This document shows, in pieces, positions 41,525 through 51,350 of a DNA stretch of 64,000 nucleotides. The stretch is from a virus (lineage: Duplodnaviria; Heunggongvirae; Uroviricota; Caudoviricetes). The notes below the pieces were generated by a model that worked only from the letters and a program-made list of their open reading frames with translations, made no database searches and had not been told where the DNA came from. Both the position numbers and the translations under genes were made by a program. Position 1 is the first letter of the stretch. Each line of letters starts with the position of its first letter. Where the stretch lies: IMG/VR virus record IMGVR_UViG_3300045988_152430; one strand, 5' to 3'.

Positions 41525-42934
41525 TTAACCTATTGCTACTGGTTTTAACAAACCAGCATCAAGTAGCTTGCGAGTTAACCACTGCTGGCCTTTACCCGTT
41601 AATTGGGGCGTCAGCCGTATCTGGTAGCCATTTTCATCATCCAGCACCACTTCTTTCACCGTGAAATACCCGGCGTTAATGTACTGCTGGCGCGGTACGT
41701 TTTTGCGCGCACCAAAAGCCATGAGAATGCCGTTCTGGCGCAACCATGAGAAAAGGGCGTTTTGCTTAAGTCCAACGACCTTTGCAAAGTTCCCGATCAG
41801 GATTCCATTAGCCGCTGATACCCGGTCGGCAAAATCGACTTTAGGGGCTGCGGCCACCAGCTGTTGATTTAGCTGGTGGGTTTTCTGTTCCAGTAGCTGC
41901 TTTTGTTCAGCCAGCTCGGCAGCCAGGCGCAGAGCTTCGGGAAGCGTCTGGGGGATTGCGACCGGTTGCTGTTCTTTTTGCCGGAAGTAGCTGTCTTCCA
42001 GTTTTTCAAAGAATGCCCACGCTTGCTCTGTGTCTACGATCTTAGACATGCGTGCCGCTCCGCGTTCGGTCCAGAGTATTAAGGATCTGGTCTTGGGGGA
42101 AATTTGCAACTCGCTAAAAGATAGTCGCAAACTTTTTATCTCATCTCCTTTGATTTTAAAGAAGTGTTTACCCTCTACAAATCGTTCTTCATTGCGATTG
42201 TAGTTCTGCTGAATACGAGTAGGTGTAGTGCCATACCCTCTAGCAAGAGTCTCGGTTGTCACGACGCGTACTCCCTGCCATTCCAGAACGGGAATTTCAT
42301 CAGGATGATTTTCAACATTTATAGGTTCCAATGCCTGAATCATGGTATGTAGCGAACGGCGGACCGCTTTTGACTCGCGCGCGGCAACTCGCAGGGCTTG
42401 TTTGTAGGTCATGGTTATGACAACCATAGGCGTACCGCCACCTGGCGGCACGGTTGCACTTTTTGTGTAACCGTCCTCACCTTCTAATTCGTCGAGTATT
42501 TTTTCGATGAATTTGTTGTTCCGAACCTCTGGTTCCCCACATAACTTACGCGCTTCATTGACCATCTTTAACAGTGTCTGGCTGTCGATTGTGTCTCCAG
42601 TGTTGGAGATAACATTCACAGCTGGTGATGGCGTAGCTGAAGCAACAGGTGCTGTTTTTTCAACATTTAAATTATTACCGGTCATTCTATGTGCCTCCTT
42701 TCTCATTTCTGCTGCCACTGTTGCGTAACGTAGACGTCCTTGTTCAATCAAATAATCCCTGATCTCGGCTATCAGTAGCCTGTTGATCACAGCCTTATCT
42801 GTTCGGGTATAAAAACGTCTGGTTATCATGAAATAGTTAGCAATTGCGCCGGGGATCTCCCGTGTCGGCATACAGGCAGTATGCAAGGCGATCGCTTCGG
42901 CTATTTCATTACGGGTGACGAGAGGTGTTTTCAT
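41525..42934 (-). CDS. ant1: Antirepressor Ant (Bro-N-like region plus KilA-C/Ant C-terminal domain)
   Basis: 469-aa ORF whose ATG overlaps the stop of the small upstream icd-like ORF (ATGA); C-terminal domain paralogous to KilA. Confidence 0.75.
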   Translation of the reverse strand: MKTPLVTRNEIAEAIALHTACMPTREIPGAIANYFMITRRFYTRTDKAVINRLLIAEIRDYLIEQGRLRYATVAAEMRKEAHRMTGNNLNVEKTAPVASATPSPAVNVISNTGDTIDSQTLLKMVNEARKLCGEPEVRNNKFIEKILDELEGEDGYTKSATVPPGGGTPMVVITMTYKQALRVAARESKAVRRSLHTMIQALEPINVENHPDEIPVLEWQGVRVVTTETLARGYGTTPTRIQQNYNRNEERFVEGKHFFKIKGDEIKSLRLSFSELQISPKTRSLILWTERGAARMSKIVDTEQAWAFFEKLEDSYFRQKEQQPVAIPQTLPEALRLAAELAEQKQLLEQKTHQLNQQLVAAAPKVDFADRVSAANGILIGNFAKVVGLKQNALFSWLRQNGILMAFGARKNVPRQQYINAGYFTVKEVVLDDENGYQIRLTPQLTGKGQQWLTRKLLDAGLLKPVAIG

Positions 42935-43184: not shown

Positions 43185-43300
43185 TACCGCGTGAGGTTCC
43201 AATCTCAATGGCGGTAGCACTGACTGGGTTGGAACTACCGGCGCAAAAGGGAACCGGCCTGCCTTTCGGCAGCCCAGCCAGCACTACCATTGATCTCGGA
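43185..43300 (-). ncRNA. c4: Probable c4-type antisense repressor RNA region (approximate)
   Basis: ORF-free leader between the upstream operator and icd with several perfect stems (gctaccgc..gcggtagc, cggtag..ctaccg, ctgcc-tttc-ggcag); placement from P1 immI organisation; exact ends not determined. Confidence 0.3.
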
Positions 43301-43486
43301 GCTATGTGCTACGTATGGTTGTGCGATGGCATGACACAAAAAAAGACGCTTTTGGCGTCTATGTCGCCTTTTGCATTATCCGGGGTTCCAATCCCGGCAT
43401 CCGTTTTACTAAGATGCCTGTTTAGGATAAACCGAAAATGCATTAGCACGCAAGCAAGTTAATGTAGCATATGAAGCTAAAAAAAT

Positions 43487-43503
43487 AAAATAATTAGAGC
43501 AAC
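43487..43503 (-). promoter_or_regulatory. Weak C1-repressor-type operator upstream of the c4-icd-ant unit
   Basis: 14/17 match (GTTGCTCTAATTATTTT on minus strand). Confidence 0.4.
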
Positions 43504-43571
43504 TTGCAACCATGTAAATTATTTCTCTGGTAACTAAAATGTATGAGTTTAATTGATATGGGTCAAAGATT

Positions 43572-43600
43572 TTGACCATTGCATGGTGAAACTTTATGCT
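43572..43600 (+). promoter_or_regulatory. Sigma70-like promoter of the AT-rich cassette (TTGACC-17-TATGCT)
   Basis: Consensus -35, 17-bp spacer and 4/6 -10, about 50 nt upstream of the 43650 start. Confidence 0.5.
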
Positions 43601-43649
43601 ACAAAATGTTATTTTAAGGCGTTTTATCTGTGGCAGGAGATAGTTAATC

Positions 43650-44000
43650 ATGTCATCTGAACATGTTCGTAAAGGTGTAACAAATGCGAAATTCAATGAA
43701 GAGCAATCTAATATTCTCTTTATTGAAATAGGAATTCTGTCAATACTGATAGGTTTAATGTCTAAATCATGGTGGGCCTTTGGCGGTTCTTTTCTTGGAC
43801 TGATTTTTAGTTTAAGAATAAAATTTCTAGCAATACCATTGATGATTGTATTTAGCTTAGTATGGGGAGCTATTGGCTATAGTATTGGTACTTTGTTTGA
43901 ATCAACAGCAGCAAGTATTGTTTTGGGGGTAATTGCTTTCCTGAGTGGTTTGGGTACTCATTTTGCTGCCGTGCAATGGGCAAATGATATTGCAGAATAA
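43650..44000 (+). CDS. Small integral membrane protein (116 aa, three predicted TM helices)
   Basis: AT-rich ORF; hydrophobic segments ILFIEIGILSILIGLM, LGLIFSLRIKFLAIPLMIVFSLVWGAIGYSIG, ASIVLGVIAFLSGL. Confidence 0.55.
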   Translation: MSSEHVRKGVTNAKFNEEQSNILFIEIGILSILIGLMSKSWWAFGGSFLGLIFSLRIKFLAIPLMIVFSLVWGAIGYSIGTLFESTAASIVLGVIAFLSGLGTHFAAVQWANDIAE

Positions 44001-44022
44001 TTACAGATAAGAAGCGAAAAGA

Positions 44023-44499
44023 ATGAATATGAGATGGTTTTTATTATTTGTATCGTTAGTTTCAGCAGGAACATTTGCAAAAATTGATCCTCTACAATGG
44101 AATGTAATTGAAGAGAGAGGGGGGAGAGAATATACAATCCATAATCATAATGGTGATAAGATAAGTTTTTTATGTGATATGGGATTCATGTATGGTTCAC
44201 CAGATAGTGCAGGTAGTTTAGGCTTGTTGCTAAGTTCGTCGAATAATAAAAAAGAGTATAATGCTGACAAGAATAAAATAGTATTAACTATAGATGGTGA
44301 TCAATATCCTTTTAGCAATCTTGGATCAATGGTTGGAGATTCTTGGTGGTATGCCTTTTGGCAAGATGCAGCAGATTCAAATGCTAATATGATTGATGCT
44401 TATGTTGATAATGAAAAAATTGCTACATTCCCTCTTTCTGGGCTAAGTAAGTTGTATCAACAAGCCAAAATGGATGGATGTATTAAACGAGGCAAATGA
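44023..44499 (+). CDS. Secreted/periplasmic protein (158 aa) with cleavable signal peptide
   Basis: MNMRWFLLFVSLVSAGTFA then a polar mature domain with Trp cluster (DSWWYAFWQD); AT-rich. Confidence 0.6.
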   Translation: MNMRWFLLFVSLVSAGTFAKIDPLQWNVIEERGGREYTIHNHNGDKISFLCDMGFMYGSPDSAGSLGLLLSSSNNKKEYNADKNKIVLTIDGDQYPFSNLGSMVGDSWWYAFWQDAADSNANMIDAYVDNEKIATFPLSGLSKLYQQAKMDGCIKRGK

Positions 44500-44573
44500 T
44501 CTTTCTGTGTTAAAGATTAACGCAATCAATAAAACATTGGTTGCGTAATATTCTATTATAGAAATGGAATAAT

Positions 44574-45608
44574 ATGACAAAAATTACTAATTCTAATGAG
44601 TTGAAGTTGCTGTATAAACAGTCAGTGCTCATTCCATCATACAAAGATCACGTAGCGATCTTGCAAAAACAATTAGGAATAGAAAAACATTCTTTTCAAA
44701 ATATGCCAAGATTGAATAGACAAGCTGTAATTAGTAACTCTCTTCGAAAACAATTGGCTAGTATACCGAACTTGGCTGGAATAGGCAGCAAGTATCGTGA
44801 ACATATCGCGATTTTACAGAAACAGACTCAGGCTCTTTTCCCTCATGATGCAAATAGATATATTCAAATGCTAAGGAAACAGGCCGAAATAGCTATGCCA
44901 TTACGAAAACAGCTTGAGGTGCTTAATAAGCAAGCTGGTTTAAATAACATGCAAGCGATACTTAAAGAATTACAACAAAGTGCAAGTTATAAAATAGATG
45001 TAAGCCAAGACATAAAGAAAGTACTAGATCACTATGCTAGAACAAGAAATGCTTCATTACATCAAATAATAGAGCAGGGGATTTCATCTATTGCGCAGGC
45101 TTATGCTGAAGGTGCTACTGAAACATCACACACCAAAAGTAATGTTCAAAATAAAGGATTAAATAAACCTAGCTCAAAGTTTGTTGATTCATTTAAAGAG
45201 CTTCCTTATCCACTGCAATGGTTACTAATGGTTATATTTTCTCAAGTTGTGTTTGGTGCTTTTATTGATTACGGAAAAGAGAAAACCTTGCTGGGAATAC
45301 ACAAGGCAGAATCATATTTTATATCTCTGTTTGAGGATAAACCAATATCAAAACAACAATTAATTAAAGAAAACAAAGAAATTAGTTGGGAAGATCTCAA
45401 TGGTTTTCGTTTTATAACTGGTGAGAACGTAAGATTACACGTCAGTCCTTCTATAAATAGTGAGGTGATTGAATGCATTGGCAAAAATACTATAGTGGCT
45501 GTTTTAGATAAAAAAGATCGCCAATGGCTTTTCGTGCAGGTTAAATCAGGGGACGAGTTTATTACTGGATGGATTACACGAACATACACAAAGCCTCTTA
45601 AGGCTTGA
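44574..45608 (+). CDS. Repeat-containing membrane-anchored protein with C-terminal SH3b-like domain (344 aa)
   Basis: N-terminal degenerate tandem repeats (HVAILQKQLG / HIAILQKQTQ / YIQMLRKQAE / PLRKQLEVLNKQ), one TM helix (LQWLLMVIFSQVVFGAFIDYG), C-terminal RFITGENVRLHVSPS...GWITRTYTKP resembling bacterial SH3. Confidence 0.6.
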   Translation: MTKITNSNELKLLYKQSVLIPSYKDHVAILQKQLGIEKHSFQNMPRLNRQAVISNSLRKQLASIPNLAGIGSKYREHIAILQKQTQALFPHDANRYIQMLRKQAEIAMPLRKQLEVLNKQAGLNNMQAILKELQQSASYKIDVSQDIKKVLDHYARTRNASLHQIIEQGISSIAQAYAEGATETSHTKSNVQNKGLNKPSSKFVDSFKELPYPLQWLLMVIFSQVVFGAFIDYGKEKTLLGIHKAESYFISLFEDKPISKQQLIKENKEISWEDLNGFRFITGENVRLHVSPSINSEVIECIGKNTIVAVLDKKDRQWLFVQVKSGDEFITGWITRTYTKPLKA

Positions 45609-45709
45609 ATTTTATCACCGTATCTTGGGGCTGGGTGTTGATGACGATGTGCTACTTGAAGTACTTGGGTTTTTTAACGCAGCATCTGAAATGTGTAGAC
45701 TGACCGGTA

Positions 45710-45730
45710 ACAAATGACAACTCGTAGAAT
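45710..45730 (+). promoter_or_regulatory. Late-promoter-type element (ACAAATGACA-N5-TAGAAT)
   Basis: Motif and spacing as in the other late operons; followed by an 11-bp inverted repeat (ctcgtagaatc / gattctacgag) and the 45762 start. Confidence 0.55.
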
Positions 45731-47927: not shown

Positions 47928-50900
47928 ATGGAAAGAAAAAACGCCAATATTGACGATGTTATAAGGACAGTTGAAACCGCCAGCGCGAAAGAGCTGGAAG
48001 AGCTTGCAGGTATTCGGGAAGCTGTTGAAGATTTGAAAGGGGAACGAGTTGCAACTGTTGATCCTGTCTCTCGCAGTGTGTCGGCATTAAATCGAACAAT
48101 CGAAAATTCCCGGCCAGACTTTGTGGCCAATGCGCCATCAGTAGACCCTATTGTTGACGCAATGAAACGGCTTAATTTAGGGGACGTTTCTCGTGTAGTT
48201 CAGGAGGGCATTGCTCAAGAGGAACAGCAGGCCAAATCAACTACACCAAAGGGTAAAAAAAGACGCAGGAAGGCTATATCAGAGGATATAAAGGCACAAC
48301 GGACCGAAGCAGCCGAACACGCTCGCGAAATGTTCGATCAAAAAGGCGGTGCGCAAAAAAGCCAAAACCAACGCGATGCGCGTGGTCGTTTTATTGGAAA
48401 GTCAGGGAGTAAGGCCGCAGCGGAAGATGCCCGTGCTGAACGTGCTGAAAAGGCCAGGCGCAAAGAGGATGATGAGCGTCTAAATGCTGAATCAGGTTTA
48501 TTAAAAAAACTGTCAAAAGTAGCTGAAGGCATAGGTAACCCTTCAGAGACTCGTGCCGTCGATGCGTTAGGTTATGCCGTTGCTGGTCCATTGTGGGCAG
48601 CAGGGAAGGAGCTTGGCGGGATATCAAAAGAAGTTGGTGGATCGCTTAATGGTGCCAGAAAGTCTATTGCCGATGTGATTCGTGGCAATGACGATAACAG
48701 CCGTAGAAAAGGTTTTTTTAGGCGTAAATCGCAAAATAGTGCCGATGTCGTTCAGGTTAACACCCAAAAACGGACGGTTCAGGAACTTCAGGAGCAGACC
48801 AGCGAAATTAAAGAGGGCAATGACAAGATTCTCAGCGCCCTTGATCAGATAGCCAAAAACACCGGGAAAAAGAAGGGCGGCTTGCTGTCCAAACTATTTA
48901 GCCTGTTAGGGAAGGGGGCCGGTGGCGTCGCGTCGTTGTTAATGGGGCGTGGCATGCTGAAAAAAGCTGGAGCACTCGCTTTTGGCGCTCTGGGGGCAAA
49001 GAAACTTGTAGGAATGCTACGCGGTGGTGGCAAGAAGACTATCGCCCATGAAGGTGGAGATTTGGCTGCCCGGGCAGCAGGTAAATTTGGATTAAAGGCA
49101 GTTGGTAAAGGGGCGTTACGCGCAATTCCCTTAGTCGGCACAGTGGCTGGAGGTATTTATGATGCGGTAACCGGTTGGAATGATACAGAAGCGCAACGTC
49201 GAGCGTTTGGGCTTAAATCAGGACAAGAGCCATCATTCCAGCAAAAAGCCGCTTATACGTTAGCCAATGTTCTTGATATGGGGGGACTGGTATCTGGTAT
49301 TAGCAGCGCCATTGGTGAGGTTCTCAAATCACTTGGATTTGAGGATATCGGCAATATGTTGCAATCATTTTCGACGGAAAGTATTGCCCAGGCCATTGAT
49401 AGTGGGATTACCAACTTAGAAACATATATTTCTAACCTTGGCGACACCATTTCTACCAAGTTCGAAGATTACACAGCAAAGATTGGTGATGCTGTTTCAG
49501 CATGGTTTAGCGATACATCTAATAAGCTGCTTGAAAAGCTGGATGCCATCAAAGACTTCTTTACTGTTGATAACCTGAAACAGGTTTTCAGTGATGCAAT
49601 TGATAGTGCAATTGATTTCATTAAGAACCCAGGGAAACACATTAAAGAGGCGGCTGGTAATATTTGGGATGGGGTTAAAAATTTACCCGGTAAAGCATTA
49701 GATGCAGCGGTTGATGCCGTTAAAAATACCCCTGCGGCAATGATTGTATCAAAAATACCCAATCCGATCGGCGAGGCTAATGCAAAAGAAATCACTCCAG
49801 AGTTAAAAGCTCCGGTTAATAGCCACCAGGAGACATCTGATTCTAAAACTGAATCCGATGCTAAACAGACTAATATTGCTACCCGCGTGATAAATGCGGC
49901 ACTGGACACGGCGAAAGATAGCAATAAAACAGTTAAAGAAACTGCCAATCAGATTATCAATGCAAATGCCGTAGAAATGGGCAATAGCGCGGTGCGGAAA
50001 ATTGATTCAGCTATTGGACAAAATAGCTCGTCATCATCGTCGCGTAATACCACCGGCACTGGGAATGACATTCAGAAAGCTGCTGATACCTACAATAATG
50101 GCAACTTAGATGTAAAAGTCGGAAGCCTTGGCGCTGAAGGTAAGGCAAATCTCGATAAGTTAGCTCCGTATTTTGCTGAACTAGAGAATAAATATGGTCT
50201 TCCTGAAGGCACTCTTTACGCGATTGCTGCAACTGAATCAGGAGGGGATCCTAACGCAAAGTCTCCGCTTACAAGATCACCAGATGGAAAGTTAAGTGGT
50301 GGCGCACTCGGGATGTTCCAGTTCACGAGTATTGCTCGTAAAGAGACAGGGATATCGGAACCGGATGCATTTGATCCTGTGAAATCGGCAGAAGCTGCGG
50401 CTCTTCTCATGAGCAAGTATCTGAAGCAAGCCAATGGAGACTTAAACGAGGCCATCACTGCATATAACGCTGGGTTTGGCACTATTAATAGGTGGAAAAA
50501 AGGCACAGGTGACTTATCGAAAGAAAACCGTGAGTACGCGATCAAGGTCAATACTCATCGTGCTCGCTATTTAGGTGGTGAAATCTATACACCTGGGGCA
50601 GGAGCACAGGGTGGGGCGCAATATGGAGTGAGGGGACCACTGCCTGATAACGCTGTTATCGATCAGTCTACTGGCCTGGCGTTTACCCCTGGTGATAGCC
50701 CGTTTGAGAAAGGCGGTCTGGTAGACAAAATTGGCAATGCTGTTGGCGTTAACGATCTGGTCAACAAATTCATGAATGGCCGGGGTATGCGTCGGGAAGT
50801 CGTTCAGGGAACGCTCGAAGAACGTGCACGAGGGAAGGGGACCGCAACAGCAGCTGGCAATGTGTATGTTGATACCCCGATGCCAGTTGAAGAGGCGCGT

Positions 50901-51350
50901 CCGGTGGCCAACAACTCAAGTTACTTTGACCAGCTCGGCGCACAAATGGGGATTGATGGACTATTCGATAAACTCCGCAACTCGCCGGGGATGCGGAAAA
51001 ATAATGCGCCTGAACCAGCCTCCACGTCCCAGGTGACGACTGCCGCCAACGATTTGCAGCAACCAACCGGTCGTATGCAGATAGACGGACAGGTTATTAG
51101 TGACCTTGGCGGCTCCGGTGCCAAGCCGACAATGCAGTTGGCTGATAATACCGTTTCACTTGATGGTGAAACGAAGCGGCTGTTTGCGCAGATGACCTCA
51201 TTGCTTGCCAGGATTGAAGAGCACACCAAAGACTCGGCGAAAGGCCAGGGAACTGTCGTAAAGGTCAGCACGCCTCAGCCGGGCGTTATGCGCACGGTAC
51301 CACTGTCAATTGATGATCCGTTGATGAATGACTACGCGAGAGTTGATTGA
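47928..51350 (+). CDS. sit: Tail internal/tape-measure-like protein with lytic transglycosylase (SLT) domain (P1 Sit type)
   Basis: 1140 aa; Gly/Ala/Lys-rich repeats; SLT motif AIAATESGGDPNA...GALGMFQF...AITAYNAGFG; length matches recalled P1 Sit. Confidence 0.85.
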   Translation: MERKNANIDDVIRTVETASAKELEELAGIREAVEDLKGERVATVDPVSRSVSALNRTIENSRPDFVANAPSVDPIVDAMKRLNLGDVSRVVQEGIAQEEQQAKSTTPKGKKRRRKAISEDIKAQRTEAAEHAREMFDQKGGAQKSQNQRDARGRFIGKSGSKAAAEDARAERAEKARRKEDDERLNAESGLLKKLSKVAEGIGNPSETRAVDALGYAVAGPLWAAGKELGGISKEVGGSLNGARKSIADVIRGNDDNSRRKGFFRRKSQNSADVVQVNTQKRTVQELQEQTSEIKEGNDKILSALDQIAKNTGKKKGGLLSKLFSLLGKGAGGVASLLMGRGMLKKAGALAFGALGAKKLVGMLRGGGKKTIAHEGGDLAARAAGKFGLKAVGKGALRAIPLVGTVAGGIYDAVTGWNDTEAQRRAFGLKSGQEPSFQQKAAYTLANVLDMGGLVSGISSAIGEVLKSLGFEDIGNMLQSFSTESIAQAIDSGITNLETYISNLGDTISTKFEDYTAKIGDAVSAWFSDTSNKLLEKLDAIKDFFTVDNLKQVFSDAIDSAIDFIKNPGKHIKEAAGNIWDGVKNLPGKALDAAVDAVKNTPAAMIVSKIPNPIGEANAKEITPELKAPVNSHQETSDSKTESDAKQTNIATRVINAALDTAKDSNKTVKETANQIINANAVEMGNSAVRKIDSAIGQNSSSSSSRNTTGTGNDIQKAADTYNNGNLDVKVGSLGAEGKANLDKLAPYFAELENKYGLPEGTLYAIAATESGGDPNAKSPLTRSPDGKLSGGALGMFQFTSIARKETGISEPDAFDPVKSAEAAALLMSKYLKQANGDLNEAITAYNAGFGTINRWKKGTGDLSKENREYAIKVNTHRARYLGGEIYTPGAGAQGGAQYGVRGPLPDNAVIDQSTGLAFTPGDSPFEKGGLVDKIGNAVGVNDLVNKFMNGRGMRREVVQGTLEERARGKGTATAAGNVYVDTPMPVEEARPVANNSSYFDQLGAQMGIDGLFDKLRNSPGMRKNNAPEPASTSQVTTAANDLQQPTGRMQIDGQVISDLGGSGAKPTMQLADNTVSLDGETKRLFAQMTSLLARIEEHTKDSAKGQGTVVKVSTPQPGVMRTVPLSIDDPLMNDYARVD

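What the first reader, a model, noticed from the sequence alone, without database searches (positions are those of the whole stretch)
43440..45620. AT-rich three-gene envelope cassette beside the c4-icd-ant immunity region
Base composition drops sharply to AT-rich between about 43.45 and 45.62 kb while both flanks are about 50% GC. The block has three plus-strand genes, opposite in direction to the immunity operon, with their own sigma70-like promoter (TTGACC-17-TATGCT): a 116-aa three-helix membrane protein, a 158-aa protein with a textbook cleavable signal peptide, and a 344-aa protein with degenerate N-terminal tandem repeats, one TM helix and an SH3b-like C-terminus. None resembles a phage structural or regulatory protein I can name. 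As I recall, P1 carries its sim superinfection-exclusion genes next to c4, so this may be a replacement exclusion or abortive-infection module acting at the envelope. I consider it the strongest candidate for an undescribed system in the window.
Basis: partly seen in the sequence, partly recalled or inferred. Interest (0 to 1): 0.8.

Follow-up and report, generated by a model that had tools for sequence, protein, structure and literature searches.

The report
Swappable envelope-protein cargo at P1 sim locus
In this P1-like phage-plasmid, the slot where phage P1 keeps its superinfection-exclusion (sim) genes holds three unrelated, uncharacterised membrane or periplasmic proteins made of at least two separately exchangeable modules; they probably act at the cell envelope against incoming phages, but this is untested.

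Summary
GC falls to 0.31-0.36 (GC3 0.22-0.27) over about 43.44-45.62 kb, against about 0.47 in the flanks. Three plus-strand ORFs have the stated features.

The block fills the interval between the C1 operator of c4 (43487-43503) and late promoter LPsit (45712-45730). P1 carries simABC there and P7 carries upf50.5/upf50.0, and the literature already lists it as a low-GC variable region.

It is not one fixed cassette:
- A+B also occurs with a reverse DUF4760 gene instead of C.
- C-like genes occur behind a long SimA plus a B-like gene, and alone in a Citrobacter element.
- B belongs to a rare secreted family that sat in the icd-pmgC interval in all 42 viral loci found with it.

Low dN/dS (0.07 for A, 0.22 for B) indicates working genes. 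No protein matches a known defence, exclusion, immunity or lysis family, and B's confident model has no convincing solved relative.

Every gene product seen at this locus is envelope-targeted, and SimC is the only characterised one, so prophage-expressed entry exclusion is the best guess (about 0.45). One relative carries a colicin and its immunity gene here, so a wider role as conflict cargo stays open. Function is untested.

The parts
43339..43417 (-). isrK-like RNA element in the c4 leader. It replaces the a1/b1 C4-target element of P1 and P7 and travels with A+B-carrying alleles.
   Evidence: Rfam RF01394 at 58.3 bits (gathering score 50) in the window and in allele 4 locus L001. P1, P7 and alleles 5 and 6 have RF03163 c4-a1b1 instead.
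43487..43503 (-). C1 operator-like site, equivalent to Op(c4)/Op51. It marks the left edge of the variable segment.
   Evidence: GTTGCTCTAATTATTTT has 3 mismatches to the operator consensus. There are 9 such sites in the window against 0.28 expected. The position corresponds to Op(c4) in P1 and P7.
43561..43577 (.). Palindrome GGTCAAA-GAT-TTTGACC overlapping the putative -35 element. It is a possible regulator site.
   Evidence: Read directly from the sequence. The region scan lists TTGACC hexamers on both strands here. Function untested.
43572..43600 (+). Putative sigma-70 promoter TTGACC-17-TATGCT upstream of gene A.
   Evidence: It matches 9 of 12 consensus positions, but such sites are not enriched (7 found, 10.4 expected). 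The -10 element is TGTGCT in allele 4. This is a prediction only.
43650..44000 (+). Gene A: a 116-aa small inner-membrane protein with 3-4 transmembrane segments and a glycine-zipper-like WGxIGxxIG motif. It belongs to PHROG 15014.
   Evidence: ORF and hydropathy. PHROG hit at E 1e-75. The family has 13 clusters, including Salmonella, Vibrio and metagenomes. Invariant residues are R7, E26, W41, W72, G76, G80, G100, G102, H104 and D113. dN/dS is 0.07. An AGGAG ribosome-binding site lies upstream.
44023..44499 (+). Gene B: a 158-aa secreted (periplasmic) protein, mostly beta-strand with two helices. It belongs to PHROG 3429 and carries the precomputed tag PF27224. It is the recurrent resident of this locus.
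   Evidence: Signal peptide plus conserved C51 and C153. AlphaFold2 model with pLDDT 85 and pTM 0.78. No convincing solved relative. About 17 true relatives among 1.84 billion representative proteins. 185 PLSDB records carry a family member. In all 42 IMG/VR loci the gene lies between icd and pmgC. dN/dS is 0.22.
44520..44546 (+). Stable hairpin with an 11-bp stem in the B-C intergenic region, at the junction between modules. It could act as a terminator, attenuator or RNA-stability element.
   Evidence: Found by the terminator-like scan. RNA fold gives -19.4 kcal/mol with z = -5.2 and 0 of 200 shuffles as stable. Homology of A+B to allele 4 ends at 44493.
44574..45608 (+). Gene C: a 344-aa single-pass membrane protein with a variable Q/K-rich helical repeat region at the N-terminus (about 1-205), one transmembrane helix (213-231), a conserved linker and a C-terminal SH3b domain (about 279-341). 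It belongs to PHROG 7086.
   Evidence: The family has 48 clusters, all in Enterobacteriaceae or Yersinia, mostly on contigs of about 90-100 kb. 64 PLSDB records carry it. It stands alone in a Citrobacter element. The whole-protein AlphaFold2 model is poor (pLDDT 42).
45609..45708 (+). 3' tail of the C module, about 100 nt with normal GC.
   Evidence: It is shared with the region downstream of the C-like gene in allele 5 and is absent from alleles 6, P1 and P7. It is not more structured than chance.
45712..45730 (+). LPsit late promoter (AAATGACAA-N4-TAGAAT). It marks the right edge of the variable segment.
   Evidence: It has 1 mismatch to the P1 LPsit sequence. Homology to P1, P7 and all alleles resumes here. 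No late-promoter match lies inside the cassette.

Best explanation
The block is horizontally acquired accessory cargo. It occupies the hypervariable sim slot of a P1-like phage-plasmid, between the C1-controlled c4 operator and the late promoter of the tail-tube/sit operon.

It is a composite of at least two modules that exchange independently. One is A+B, which travels with an isrK-type c4 leader. The other is C with its own 3' tail.

Proposed mechanism (inferred, not shown):
- The genes are transcribed outward from the immunity region in the lysogen, as sim is in P1.
- A inserts into the inner membrane.
- B is exported by Sec, loses its signal peptide and folds as a disulfide-bonded periplasmic protein.
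- C sits in the inner membrane with its SH3b domain in the periplasm, bound to peptidoglycan, and its variable repeat region in the cytoplasm.
- Each product interferes with a post-adsorption step of genome delivery by incoming phages. That step would be passage of the tail-tip/tape-measure (Sit) apparatus and DNA through peptidoglycan and the inner membrane.

Functionally this parallels SimC of P1, Imm plus Sp of T4, or SieA of P22.

Shown here: location, foreign composition, modularity, purifying selection, envelope targeting, and lack of homology to known families.

Inferred: expression in the lysogen, the topology of A and C, peptidoglycan binding, and the exclusion function itself.
For: Position:
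- The same interval holds simABC in P1 and upf50.5/50.0 in P7.
- SimC is the genetically defined superimmunity/exclusion determinant (P1 record annotation; my own knowledge of Kliem and Dreiseikelmann 1989 and Maillou and Dreiseikelmann 1990).
- sim genes are dispensable for plaque formation (PMC10695390).

Compartment:
- SimB, SimC, long SimA, B, B5, B6 and Upf50.0 start with a signal peptide. Upf50.5 starts with a lipobox. A, C and DUF4760 have transmembrane helices.
- P7 Upf50.5 weakly resembles the surface-exclusion lipoprotein TraT (E 7e-5, below the cutoff).
- The long SimA of alleles 5 and 6 carries a 47-aa stretch 49% identical to Sit residues 937-979 (pairwise E 6e-9). It also hits the Sit PHROG at E 8e-8. 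This suggests interference with the injection machinery at this locus.

Real genes:
- dN/dS is 0.07 for A and 0.22 for B, with dS 0.11-0.20 against 0.007 for flanking pmgC.
- The exact proteins are seen on 634 to more than 1000 contigs.

Expression timing: there is no late promoter inside the block, and LPsit lies downstream of it.

Range: B relatives occur almost only in P1-like elements and in a few lytic jumbo phages.

Analogy: a peptidoglycan-anchored periplasmic effector that blocks DNA entry has a recent precedent in HxsA (PMC13128918).
Against: - There is no experimental evidence.
- There is no sequence or fold similarity to any known exclusion or defence protein. PADLOC and NCBIfam gave nothing, PHROG hits are all 'unknown function', and blastp against SimB, SimC and Upf50.x gave E > 1.
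- The slot can carry a pore-forming colicin with its immunity gene, so position alone does not imply phage exclusion.
- A homologues occur in non-phage contexts.
- A B-like gene sits beside T6SS genes in an Enterobacter chromosome.
- The promoter is only a motif.
- AT-rich DNA in E. coli is often silenced by H-NS (my own knowledge).
- The topology of C cannot be settled from charge bias.
Confidence: 0.45

Rival explanations
1. The genes are inter-bacterial conflict cargo rather than phage exclusion. On this view A and/or B are orphan immunity proteins that protect the lysogen from envelope-acting toxins, such as pore-forming or peptidoglycan-targeting bacteriocins or periplasmic T6SS effectors. 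C would be an unrelated envelope factor.
For: - A Pseudocitrobacter P1-like element has, in this interval, DUF4431, an A-like gene (58% identity) and a B-like gene (31%). They are followed by a pore-forming colicin (Pfam Colicin, E 8e-15) and a colicin immunity gene (E 4e-8).
- A B-like gene preceded by a 116-aa membrane protein lies next to Hcp, ClpV-like and OmpA-like ORFs in an Enterobacter chromosome. I identified those three by eye from their translations.
- Small multi-pass membrane proteins and small secreted proteins are the usual shapes of immunity proteins (my own knowledge).
- A homologues are scattered over Vibrio, Moraxella plasmids and metagenomes.
Against: - A, B and C match no immunity family in Pfam or NCBIfam.
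- The colicin in L070 has its own cognate immunity gene.
- No toxin gene accompanies the cassette in the window.
- The B family is almost confined to P1-like phages and some lytic jumbo phages. That fits a phage-related role better.
Confidence: 0.2
2. The genes, B in particular, serve the phage's own life cycle. Possible roles are helping tail or tape-measure function, injection, lysis timing or release. On this view they are not prophage-expressed protective genes.
For: - The B family, paired with long SimA, lies directly upstream of pmgC-tub-pmgB-sit and in the same orientation. This holds even in divergent P1-like elements with pmgC 75-77% identical, and in Cronobacter phage JK004.
- Weak B homologues exist in lytic jumbo phages of about 275 kb.
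- A small multi-pass membrane protein plus a membrane protein carrying a peptidoglycan-binding domain could in principle relate to lysis.
Against: - P1 and P7 lack A, B and C and are fully functional phages.
- The genes occupying this slot in P1 are non-essential (PMC10695390).
- There is no late promoter inside the block.
- The third-gene slot swaps between C and DUF4760 or is empty.
- There are no hits to holin, spanin or endolysin families. The only lysis-category hit was the SH3 region of C against an amidase PHROG at E 0.009.
Confidence: 0.12
3. A, B and C form one obligate three-component system. An example would be an envelope sensor-effector abortive-infection machine that needs all three parts.
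For: - The three genes are co-oriented, closely spaced and equally AT-rich.
- The full trio is conserved at 99% identity or more in 21 PLSDB plasmids and is present in full in 37 of 5426 complete E. coli genomes.
- A-like and B-like genes are adjacent again in a distant element.
Against: - A+B occurs with DUF4760 instead of C, in two A+B lineages at 94% and 98% identity.
- C-like genes occur with long SimA plus B5 and no A, and alone in Citrobacter.
- B-like genes occur with long SimA only, in the majority of loci.
- A occurs without B in several genomes.
- A stable hairpin separates B from C.
Confidence: 0.08
4. The block is decaying or silenced AT-rich junk with no current function.
For: The GC content is low, which is typical of H-NS-silenced foreign DNA. 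No functional annotation exists anywhere.
Against: - All three ORFs are intact.
- Purifying selection is strong (dN/dS 0.07 and 0.22).
- The families are conserved across genera, with invariant residues.
- The B model is confident.
- The exact sequences recur on hundreds of contigs.
Confidence: 0.03

Closest known systems
P1 sim (simA-simB-simC) superimmunity/superinfection-exclusion locus
   Same: - It occupies the identical genomic slot, between Op(c4) and LPsit.
- It points the same way, outward from immI.
- It has low GC (PMC9603915).
- It is non-essential (PMC10695390).
- Its products carry signal peptides.
   Different: There is no detectable sequence similarity between A, B or C and SimB or SimC. 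Gene number and architectures differ. P1 simA is only the truncated 5' remnant of the long SimA gene found in other alleles. No exclusion phenotype has been shown for A, B or C.
T4 Imm (membrane) plus Sp/Spackle (periplasmic inhibitor of the gp5 lysozyme)
   Same: The pairing is similar: a small multi-pass inner-membrane protein with a small Sec-exported periplasmic protein. In T4 the pair jointly blocks DNA injection and peptidoglycan penetration (PMC11436027). P1's injected Sit protein carries a transglycosylase domain that a B-like inhibitor could target (annotation; my own knowledge).
   Different: There is no sequence similarity: at E <= 0.1, A, B and C hit no PHROG annotated as superinfection exclusion, and their strong hits are all families of unknown function. 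Spackle is all-helical (my own knowledge), whereas the B model is mostly beta-strand. A and B are not always together. The resemblance is an analogy only.
P22 SieA and HK97 gp15 type inner-membrane blockers of DNA entry
   Same: These are prophage-expressed inner-membrane proteins that stop genome delivery after adsorption (PMC10883804 abstract; PMC11436027; HK97 gp15 from my own knowledge). A and C could act the same way.
   Different: There is no homology. C has a peptidoglycan-binding SH3b domain and a long variable repeat region, which those proteins do not have.
HxsA of the HXS system (a peptidoglycan-anchored periplasmic effector with repeats that blocks DNA entry)
   Same: Both combine a peptidoglycan-binding domain with a short-repeat array and act in the envelope (PMC13128918).
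   Different: HxsA is secreted and matured by radical-SAM enzymes, and its repeats are periplasmic. In C the repeats and the SH3b domain lie on opposite sides of a transmembrane helix. The net charge of the repeat region is not conserved, ranging from +16 to -6. No maturation genes are present. P1 escapes HXS.
Bacterial SH3 (SH3b, Pfam SH3_3) cell-wall-binding domains
   Same: The C-terminal 60 residues or so of C and of all 26 homologues match SH3_3. The model shows an all-beta C-terminus.
   Different: The window protein scores 26.0 bits, just below the 27-bit cutoff. No solved relative is detectable by sequence. The domain is attached to a membrane anchor and repeats rather than to a lytic enzyme.

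Membership tests
P1 Sim proteins (SimB/SimC) | Sequence homology to SimB or SimC | tested here: not met
   blastp of A, B and C against SimB and SimC gave a best E of 4.2. They also fall in different PHROGs: 14329 and 14355 for SimB and SimC, against 15014, 3429 and 7086 for A, B and C.
P1 Sim proteins (SimB/SimC) | Location between the c4 operator and LPsit, pointing away from immI | tested here: met
   Alignments to P1 and P7 and motif searches.
P1 Sim proteins (SimB/SimC) | Confers exclusion of superinfecting P1 after adsorption | not testable with these tools
   This needs plating, transduction and DNA-entry assays.
Known anti-phage defence systems (PADLOC-DB v2) | A match to any component HMM | tested here: not met
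   A, B, C and the alternative DUF4760 gene hit 0 families at E <= 1.
Annotated superinfection-exclusion, lysis or immunity families in PHROGs, Pfam and NCBIfam | A significant profile match | tested here: not met
   - PHROGs: the strong hits are all to families of unknown function.
- Pfam: the only meaningful hit is SH3_3 for C.
- NCBIfam: nothing.
SH3b (Pfam PF08239 SH3_3) | Profile match over the domain | tested here: met
   All 26 family members match, best E 2.3e-9. The window protein matches at E 1.1e-5 and 26.0 bits against a 27-bit cutoff, over residues 285-338. Homologues also carry the precomputed PF08239 tag.
SH3b (Pfam PF08239 SH3_3) | Binds peptidoglycan, and the domain is located in the periplasm | not testable with these tools
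   Topology is inferred from the absence of a signal peptide and the single transmembrane helix. Charge bias is uninformative.
B family (PHROG 3429 / precomputed PF27224) | Secreted protein of about 150-166 aa with conserved C51, W109 and C153, and full-length homology | tested here: met
   B is 37% identical to allele 6 B (E 1e-38) and 29% to allele 5 B (E 2e-22). The name and description of PF27224 could not be retrieved, because the local Pfam copy lacks it.
IalB / invasion-associated locus B fold | Structural similarity at a convincing level | tested here: inconclusive
Pore-forming colicin immunity proteins (Pfam Colicin_im and similar) | Profile match for A | tested here: not met
   A has no Pfam hit at E <= 1. 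The genuine Colicin_im protein in L070 is a different gene.

The most novel reading that the evidence does not exclude
The interval from Op(c4) to LPsit in P1-like phage-plasmids is a dedicated 'entry-warfare' slot. Its resident B family would be a new class of periplasmic inhibitor of the incoming phage's injected tape-measure/transglycosylase protein (Sit). That would make B a functional analogue of T4 Spackle with an unrelated fold.

On this reading B works beside interchangeable partners:
- A would be an Imm-like membrane block.
- Long SimA would be a Sit-mimicking decoy.
- C would be a peptidoglycan-anchored inner-membrane gate whose rapidly evolving repeats reflect an arms race.
Probability: 0.15. 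Interest if true: 0.7.

Novelty: new variant of a known kind. Interest (0 to 1): 0.45.

Why it matters
P1-like phage-plasmids are common in E. coli and its relatives and carry resistance genes. What decides which of them, and which other phages, can enter a cell already carrying one affects transduction, phage therapy and plasmid epidemiology.

This locus offers at least seven natural 'alleles' of small envelope proteins in an otherwise nearly identical genetic background. Only SimC among them has ever been studied. The alleles can be swapped and tested directly.

If B, A or C block genome delivery, they would add new protein families to the short list of mechanistically understood injection blockers. 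The long SimA/Sit similarity would point to a concrete target. If they protect against bacteriocins or T6SS effectors instead, the slot would be a general conflict-cargo site on a phage, which is also useful to know.

Tried and rejected
- **Phage DNA searches.** Megablast matched only the flanks, and distant blastn with the cassette alone found nothing.
- **Family libraries.** PADLOC, NCBIfam and Pfam gave nothing for A and B.
- **Structure of C.** AlphaFold2 with a 26-sequence alignment gave pLDDT 42, which is unusable, so I did no fold search on it.
- **Sequence searches against PDB.** The C family profile, the SH3 region of C and the B profile gave only spurious helical-repeat or chance hits.
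- **False positives in the 1.84-billion-protein search.** Three repeat proteins (P0072, P0077, P0083) were inspected and discarded.
- **Similarity to other window proteins.** tblastn of A, B and C against the whole window, testing for mimicry of virion proteins, found none. Only long SimA from other alleles matches Sit.
- **Transposon-like boundaries.** No flanking direct or inverted repeats were found, so the exchange probably happens by recombination in the conserved flanks.
- **Late promoter inside the block.** None was found.
- **B against the DUF4431 neighbour of an A homologue.** No similarity.
- **Charge-bias topology for C.** Uninformative.
- **Literature.** Searches for DUF4760, DUF4431, PF27224, and sim or phage-plasmid hotspots found no functional study of these proteins. 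Lobocka et al. 2004 is not held in the library.
- **Genome-collection scan.** The 14-sequence B alignment was too divergent to seed the search. A 5-sequence alignment found only 2 loci.


Full report
**1. The observation**

Sliding-window GC drops from 0.45-0.54 to 0.31-0.36 between about 43.35 and 45.6 kb. Third-position GC of the three ORFs is 0.22-0.27, against 0.47-0.53 in neighbouring P1 genes.

- A has three or four hydrophobic segments.
- B has a canonical Sec signal peptide.
- C has an internally duplicated Q/K-rich N-terminal region, one hydrophobic helix and a C-terminal bacterial SH3 domain.

The TTGACC-17-TATGCT motif exists at 43572-43600. Promoter-like motifs are no more frequent here than in shuffled sequence (7 against 10.4), and the -10 element reads TGTGCT in the closest sister allele. 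A 17-nt palindrome overlaps the -35 element.

**2. Where it sits**

The window is a P1-like phage-plasmid.
- The flanks are 97-98% identical to P1 and P7. The block itself matches no phage record, even with sensitive blastn.
- C4 RNA lies at 43207-43294 on the minus strand.
- A C1 operator-like site lies at 43487-43503.
- The LPsit late promoter lies at 45712-45730, where homology to all relatives resumes.

The variable segment therefore runs from about 43504 to 45711. In P1 this interval holds simA, simB and simC. In P7 it holds upf50.5 (a lipoprotein) and upf50.0 (DUF5384).

Wang et al. 2022 already list simABC as one of eight highly variable, low-GC regions of P1-like phage-plasmids (PMC9603915). 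The locus behaviour is therefore known, but the content found here has not been described. Every database name is 'hypothetical' or 'SH3 domain-containing'.

**3. It is modular, not one cassette**

I found these arrangements in the interval:
1. P1: simA-simB-simC.
2. P7: upf50.5-upf50.0.
3. This window: A-B-C.
4. A-B followed by a reverse-strand DUF4760 gene. This occurs with A+B either 94% or 98% identical to the window's.
5. Long SimA (172 aa), a B-like gene (29% identical, E 2e-22) and a C-like gene of 389 aa.
6. Long SimA (215 aa) and a B-like gene (37% identical).
7. A B5-type gene, a C-like gene and DUF4760 (L054).

Beyond these:
- A Pseudocitrobacter element has DUF4431, an A-like gene and a reverse-strand B-like gene, followed by a pore-forming colicin and its immunity gene.
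- A C-like gene stands alone in a different Citrobacter phage-plasmid.
- P1's 52-aa simA is the truncated 5' end of long SimA.

Homology between alleles 3 and 4 stops at 44493, just before a very stable hairpin at 44520-44546 (z = -5.2). The window's C lacks the first 45 or so residues of its 389-394-aa relatives. Nucleotide homology to allele 5 begins near 44629 and continues through a 100-nt 3' tail.

The A+B alleles also share an isrK-type c4 leader in place of the a1/b1 element of P1 and P7. No transposon-like repeats flank the block.

**4. Prevalence**

- In PLSDB, 669 plasmid records matched the 3.5-kb query spanning the interval and its flanks.
- 27 records carry the full block, 21 of them at 99% identity or more.
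- 185 carry a B-family gene, 64 a C-family gene and 68 an A-family gene. Fifteen of the A hits are weak matches in Moraxella plasmids.
- Among 5426 complete E. coli genomes, 37 have the full block and 113 have part of it. All but one of these places are on plasmids.
- In IMG/VR, all 42 loci with a B-family gene have it between icd and pmgC. At least 27 show long SimA plus B6, and the partial loci are consistent with the same arrangement. This includes elements whose icd and pmgC are only 69-77% identical.
- Cronobacter phage JK004 has the same pair upstream of its tail-tube/sit genes.

The B family is thus an old resident of this slot. A, C and DUF4760 are add-ons or replacements.

**5. The proteins**

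*A.* The family is well conserved, about 58-72% identical across Salmonella, Vibrio and metagenomes. It has a conserved cytoplasmic N-terminus (VRKGxTNAKFNEEQS), an invariant glutamate in the first hydrophobic segment, a WGxIGxxIG motif and an invariant histidine. Its neighbours elsewhere vary:
- an AAA ATPase;
- DUF4431, seen in two separate contexts;
- an integrase;
- metabolic genes;
- plasmid stability genes.

*B.* A HMMER scan of 1.84 billion representative proteins found only about 17 true relatives. All are 147-166 aa with signal peptides, and C51, W109 and C153 are conserved. The AlphaFold2 model is confident (pLDDT 85, pTM 0.78) and mostly beta-strand with two helices. It has no convincing solved relative. 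The only good predicted-structure matches are unannotated jumbo-phage homologues.

*C.* The 48 clusters are confined to Enterobacteriaceae and Yersinia, mostly on contigs of about 90-100 kb. The SH3b domain and the preceding linker are nearly invariant. The repeat region varies in sequence, period and copy number, giving proteins of 318-481 aa.

*Selection.* dN/dS is 0.07 for A and 0.22 for B between alleles 3 and 4. Their dS values are 0.11-0.20, against 0.007 for the flanking pmgC. The genes are functional, and the alleles are far older than their current backbone.

**6. What it most likely does**

No homology assigns a function. The inference rests on four regularities.
1. The slot's only characterised occupant, SimC, mediates superimmunity/exclusion (annotation; my own knowledge of the 1989-1990 sim papers). 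The sim genes are dispensable for lytic growth (PMC10695390).
2. Every product I examined at this slot is exported, lipidated or membrane-embedded.
3. Two other alleles point to entry-related targets. P7 Upf50.5 weakly resembles TraT. Long SimA carries a Sit-like segment.
4. The block lacks a late promoter and lies upstream of LPsit.

I therefore favour prophage-expressed interference with genome delivery at the envelope, at a confidence of about 0.45. It would act through independently working modules rather than a three-part machine.

The main rival, at about 0.2, is immunity or other cargo for bacterial conflict. The colicin module in one relative and a T6SS-adjacent B-like gene keep it alive. 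A role in the phage's own cycle is less likely (about 0.12), because P1 and P7 do without these genes.

**7. Novelty and verdict**

This is a real feature that was correctly located. Its composition and position were correctly read.

The interpretation as a sim replacement acting at the envelope is reasonable but unproven, and the 'three-gene cassette with its own promoter' framing is too simple. The locus variability is published. The protein families are uncharacterised and unrelated to known exclusion proteins.

I rate it a new variant of a known kind, namely prophage accessory envelope genes at an exclusion hotspot, with moderate interest (0.45).

Noticed in passing
window 43339-43417 (-); L001 3400-3478: An isrK Hfq-binding sRNA family hit (58 bits, gathering score 50) sits in the c4 leader between the C1 operator and C4 RNA. 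P1, P7 and alleles 5 and 6 have the c4-a1b1 target element (RF03163) at that place instead. The immunity-region leader therefore comes in two forms, and the isrK form travels with A+B alleles.
   Followed up: partly
L010 979-1626 and L009 1154-1672 (other alleles), compared with window 47928-51350 (Sit), residues 937-979: The secreted 'long SimA' protein has a 47-aa segment 49% identical to a C-terminal segment of the injected tape-measure/transglycosylase protein Sit (GMRxxxVQGTLEERARGxGT). The pairwise E-value is 6e-9, and it also hits the Sit PHROG at E 8e-8. This may be a molecular mimic or decoy. The motif is not kept in Cronobacter phage JK004.
   Followed up: partly
L002 2153-2311 (P1 simA): P1 simA (52 aa) is the truncated 5' remnant of a gene of 172-215 aa that is intact in many P1-like plasmids. 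The P1 reference arrangement is therefore a derived state of the locus.
   Followed up: yes
L003 2366-2887 (P7 upf50.5): RefSeq and PHROG label this lipoprotein, which has a signal peptide and an LLSGC lipobox, as 'DNA methyltransferase'. That is almost certainly a propagated mis-annotation. It weakly resembles the surface-exclusion lipoprotein TraT (Pfam E 7e-5, below the cutoff).
   Followed up: partly
L070 3259-6764 (Pseudocitrobacter P1-like element): The same interval carries DUF4431, an A-like gene and a reverse-strand B-like gene. They are followed by a pore-forming colicin (Pfam Colicin, E 8e-15) and, on the opposite strand, a colicin immunity gene (E 4e-8). This is a bacteriocin module on a phage-plasmid.
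   Followed up: partly
L006 439-1608, L007, L070 3259-4348: A DUF4431 protein sits immediately upstream of an A-family gene in two separate contexts: a metagenome contig and the Pseudocitrobacter element. This may be a conserved gene pair of unknown function.
   Followed up: no
L012 4581-5444 (Enterobacter chromosome): A B-family gene is preceded by an unrelated 116-aa two-transmembrane protein. The pair lies close to ORFs that look like Hcp, ClpV and an OmpA-type protein (T6SS) and next to a LuxR-type regulator and a giant adhesin. All of these neighbours were identified by eye from the translations.
   Followed up: no
window 41525-42934 (-): The Ant1 homologue is 469 aa, against 347 aa in P1, so it carries an N-terminal extension or rearrangement. 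In some relatives the gene is split into pseudogenes (L017).
   Followed up: no
window 43561-43577: A perfect 7-3-7 palindrome, GGTCAAAGATTTTGACC, overlaps the putative -35 element of the A/B promoter and creates divergent TTGACC hexamers. It may be an operator for an unknown regulator.
   Followed up: no
L015 2974-3417 and related jumbo phages: Weak B-family homologues (about 26% identity, E 1e-4; Foldseek TM 0.72 to a Serratia phage protein) occur in lytic Serratia and Pectobacterium jumbo phages of about 275 kb. They sit among hypothetical genes.
   Followed up: partly
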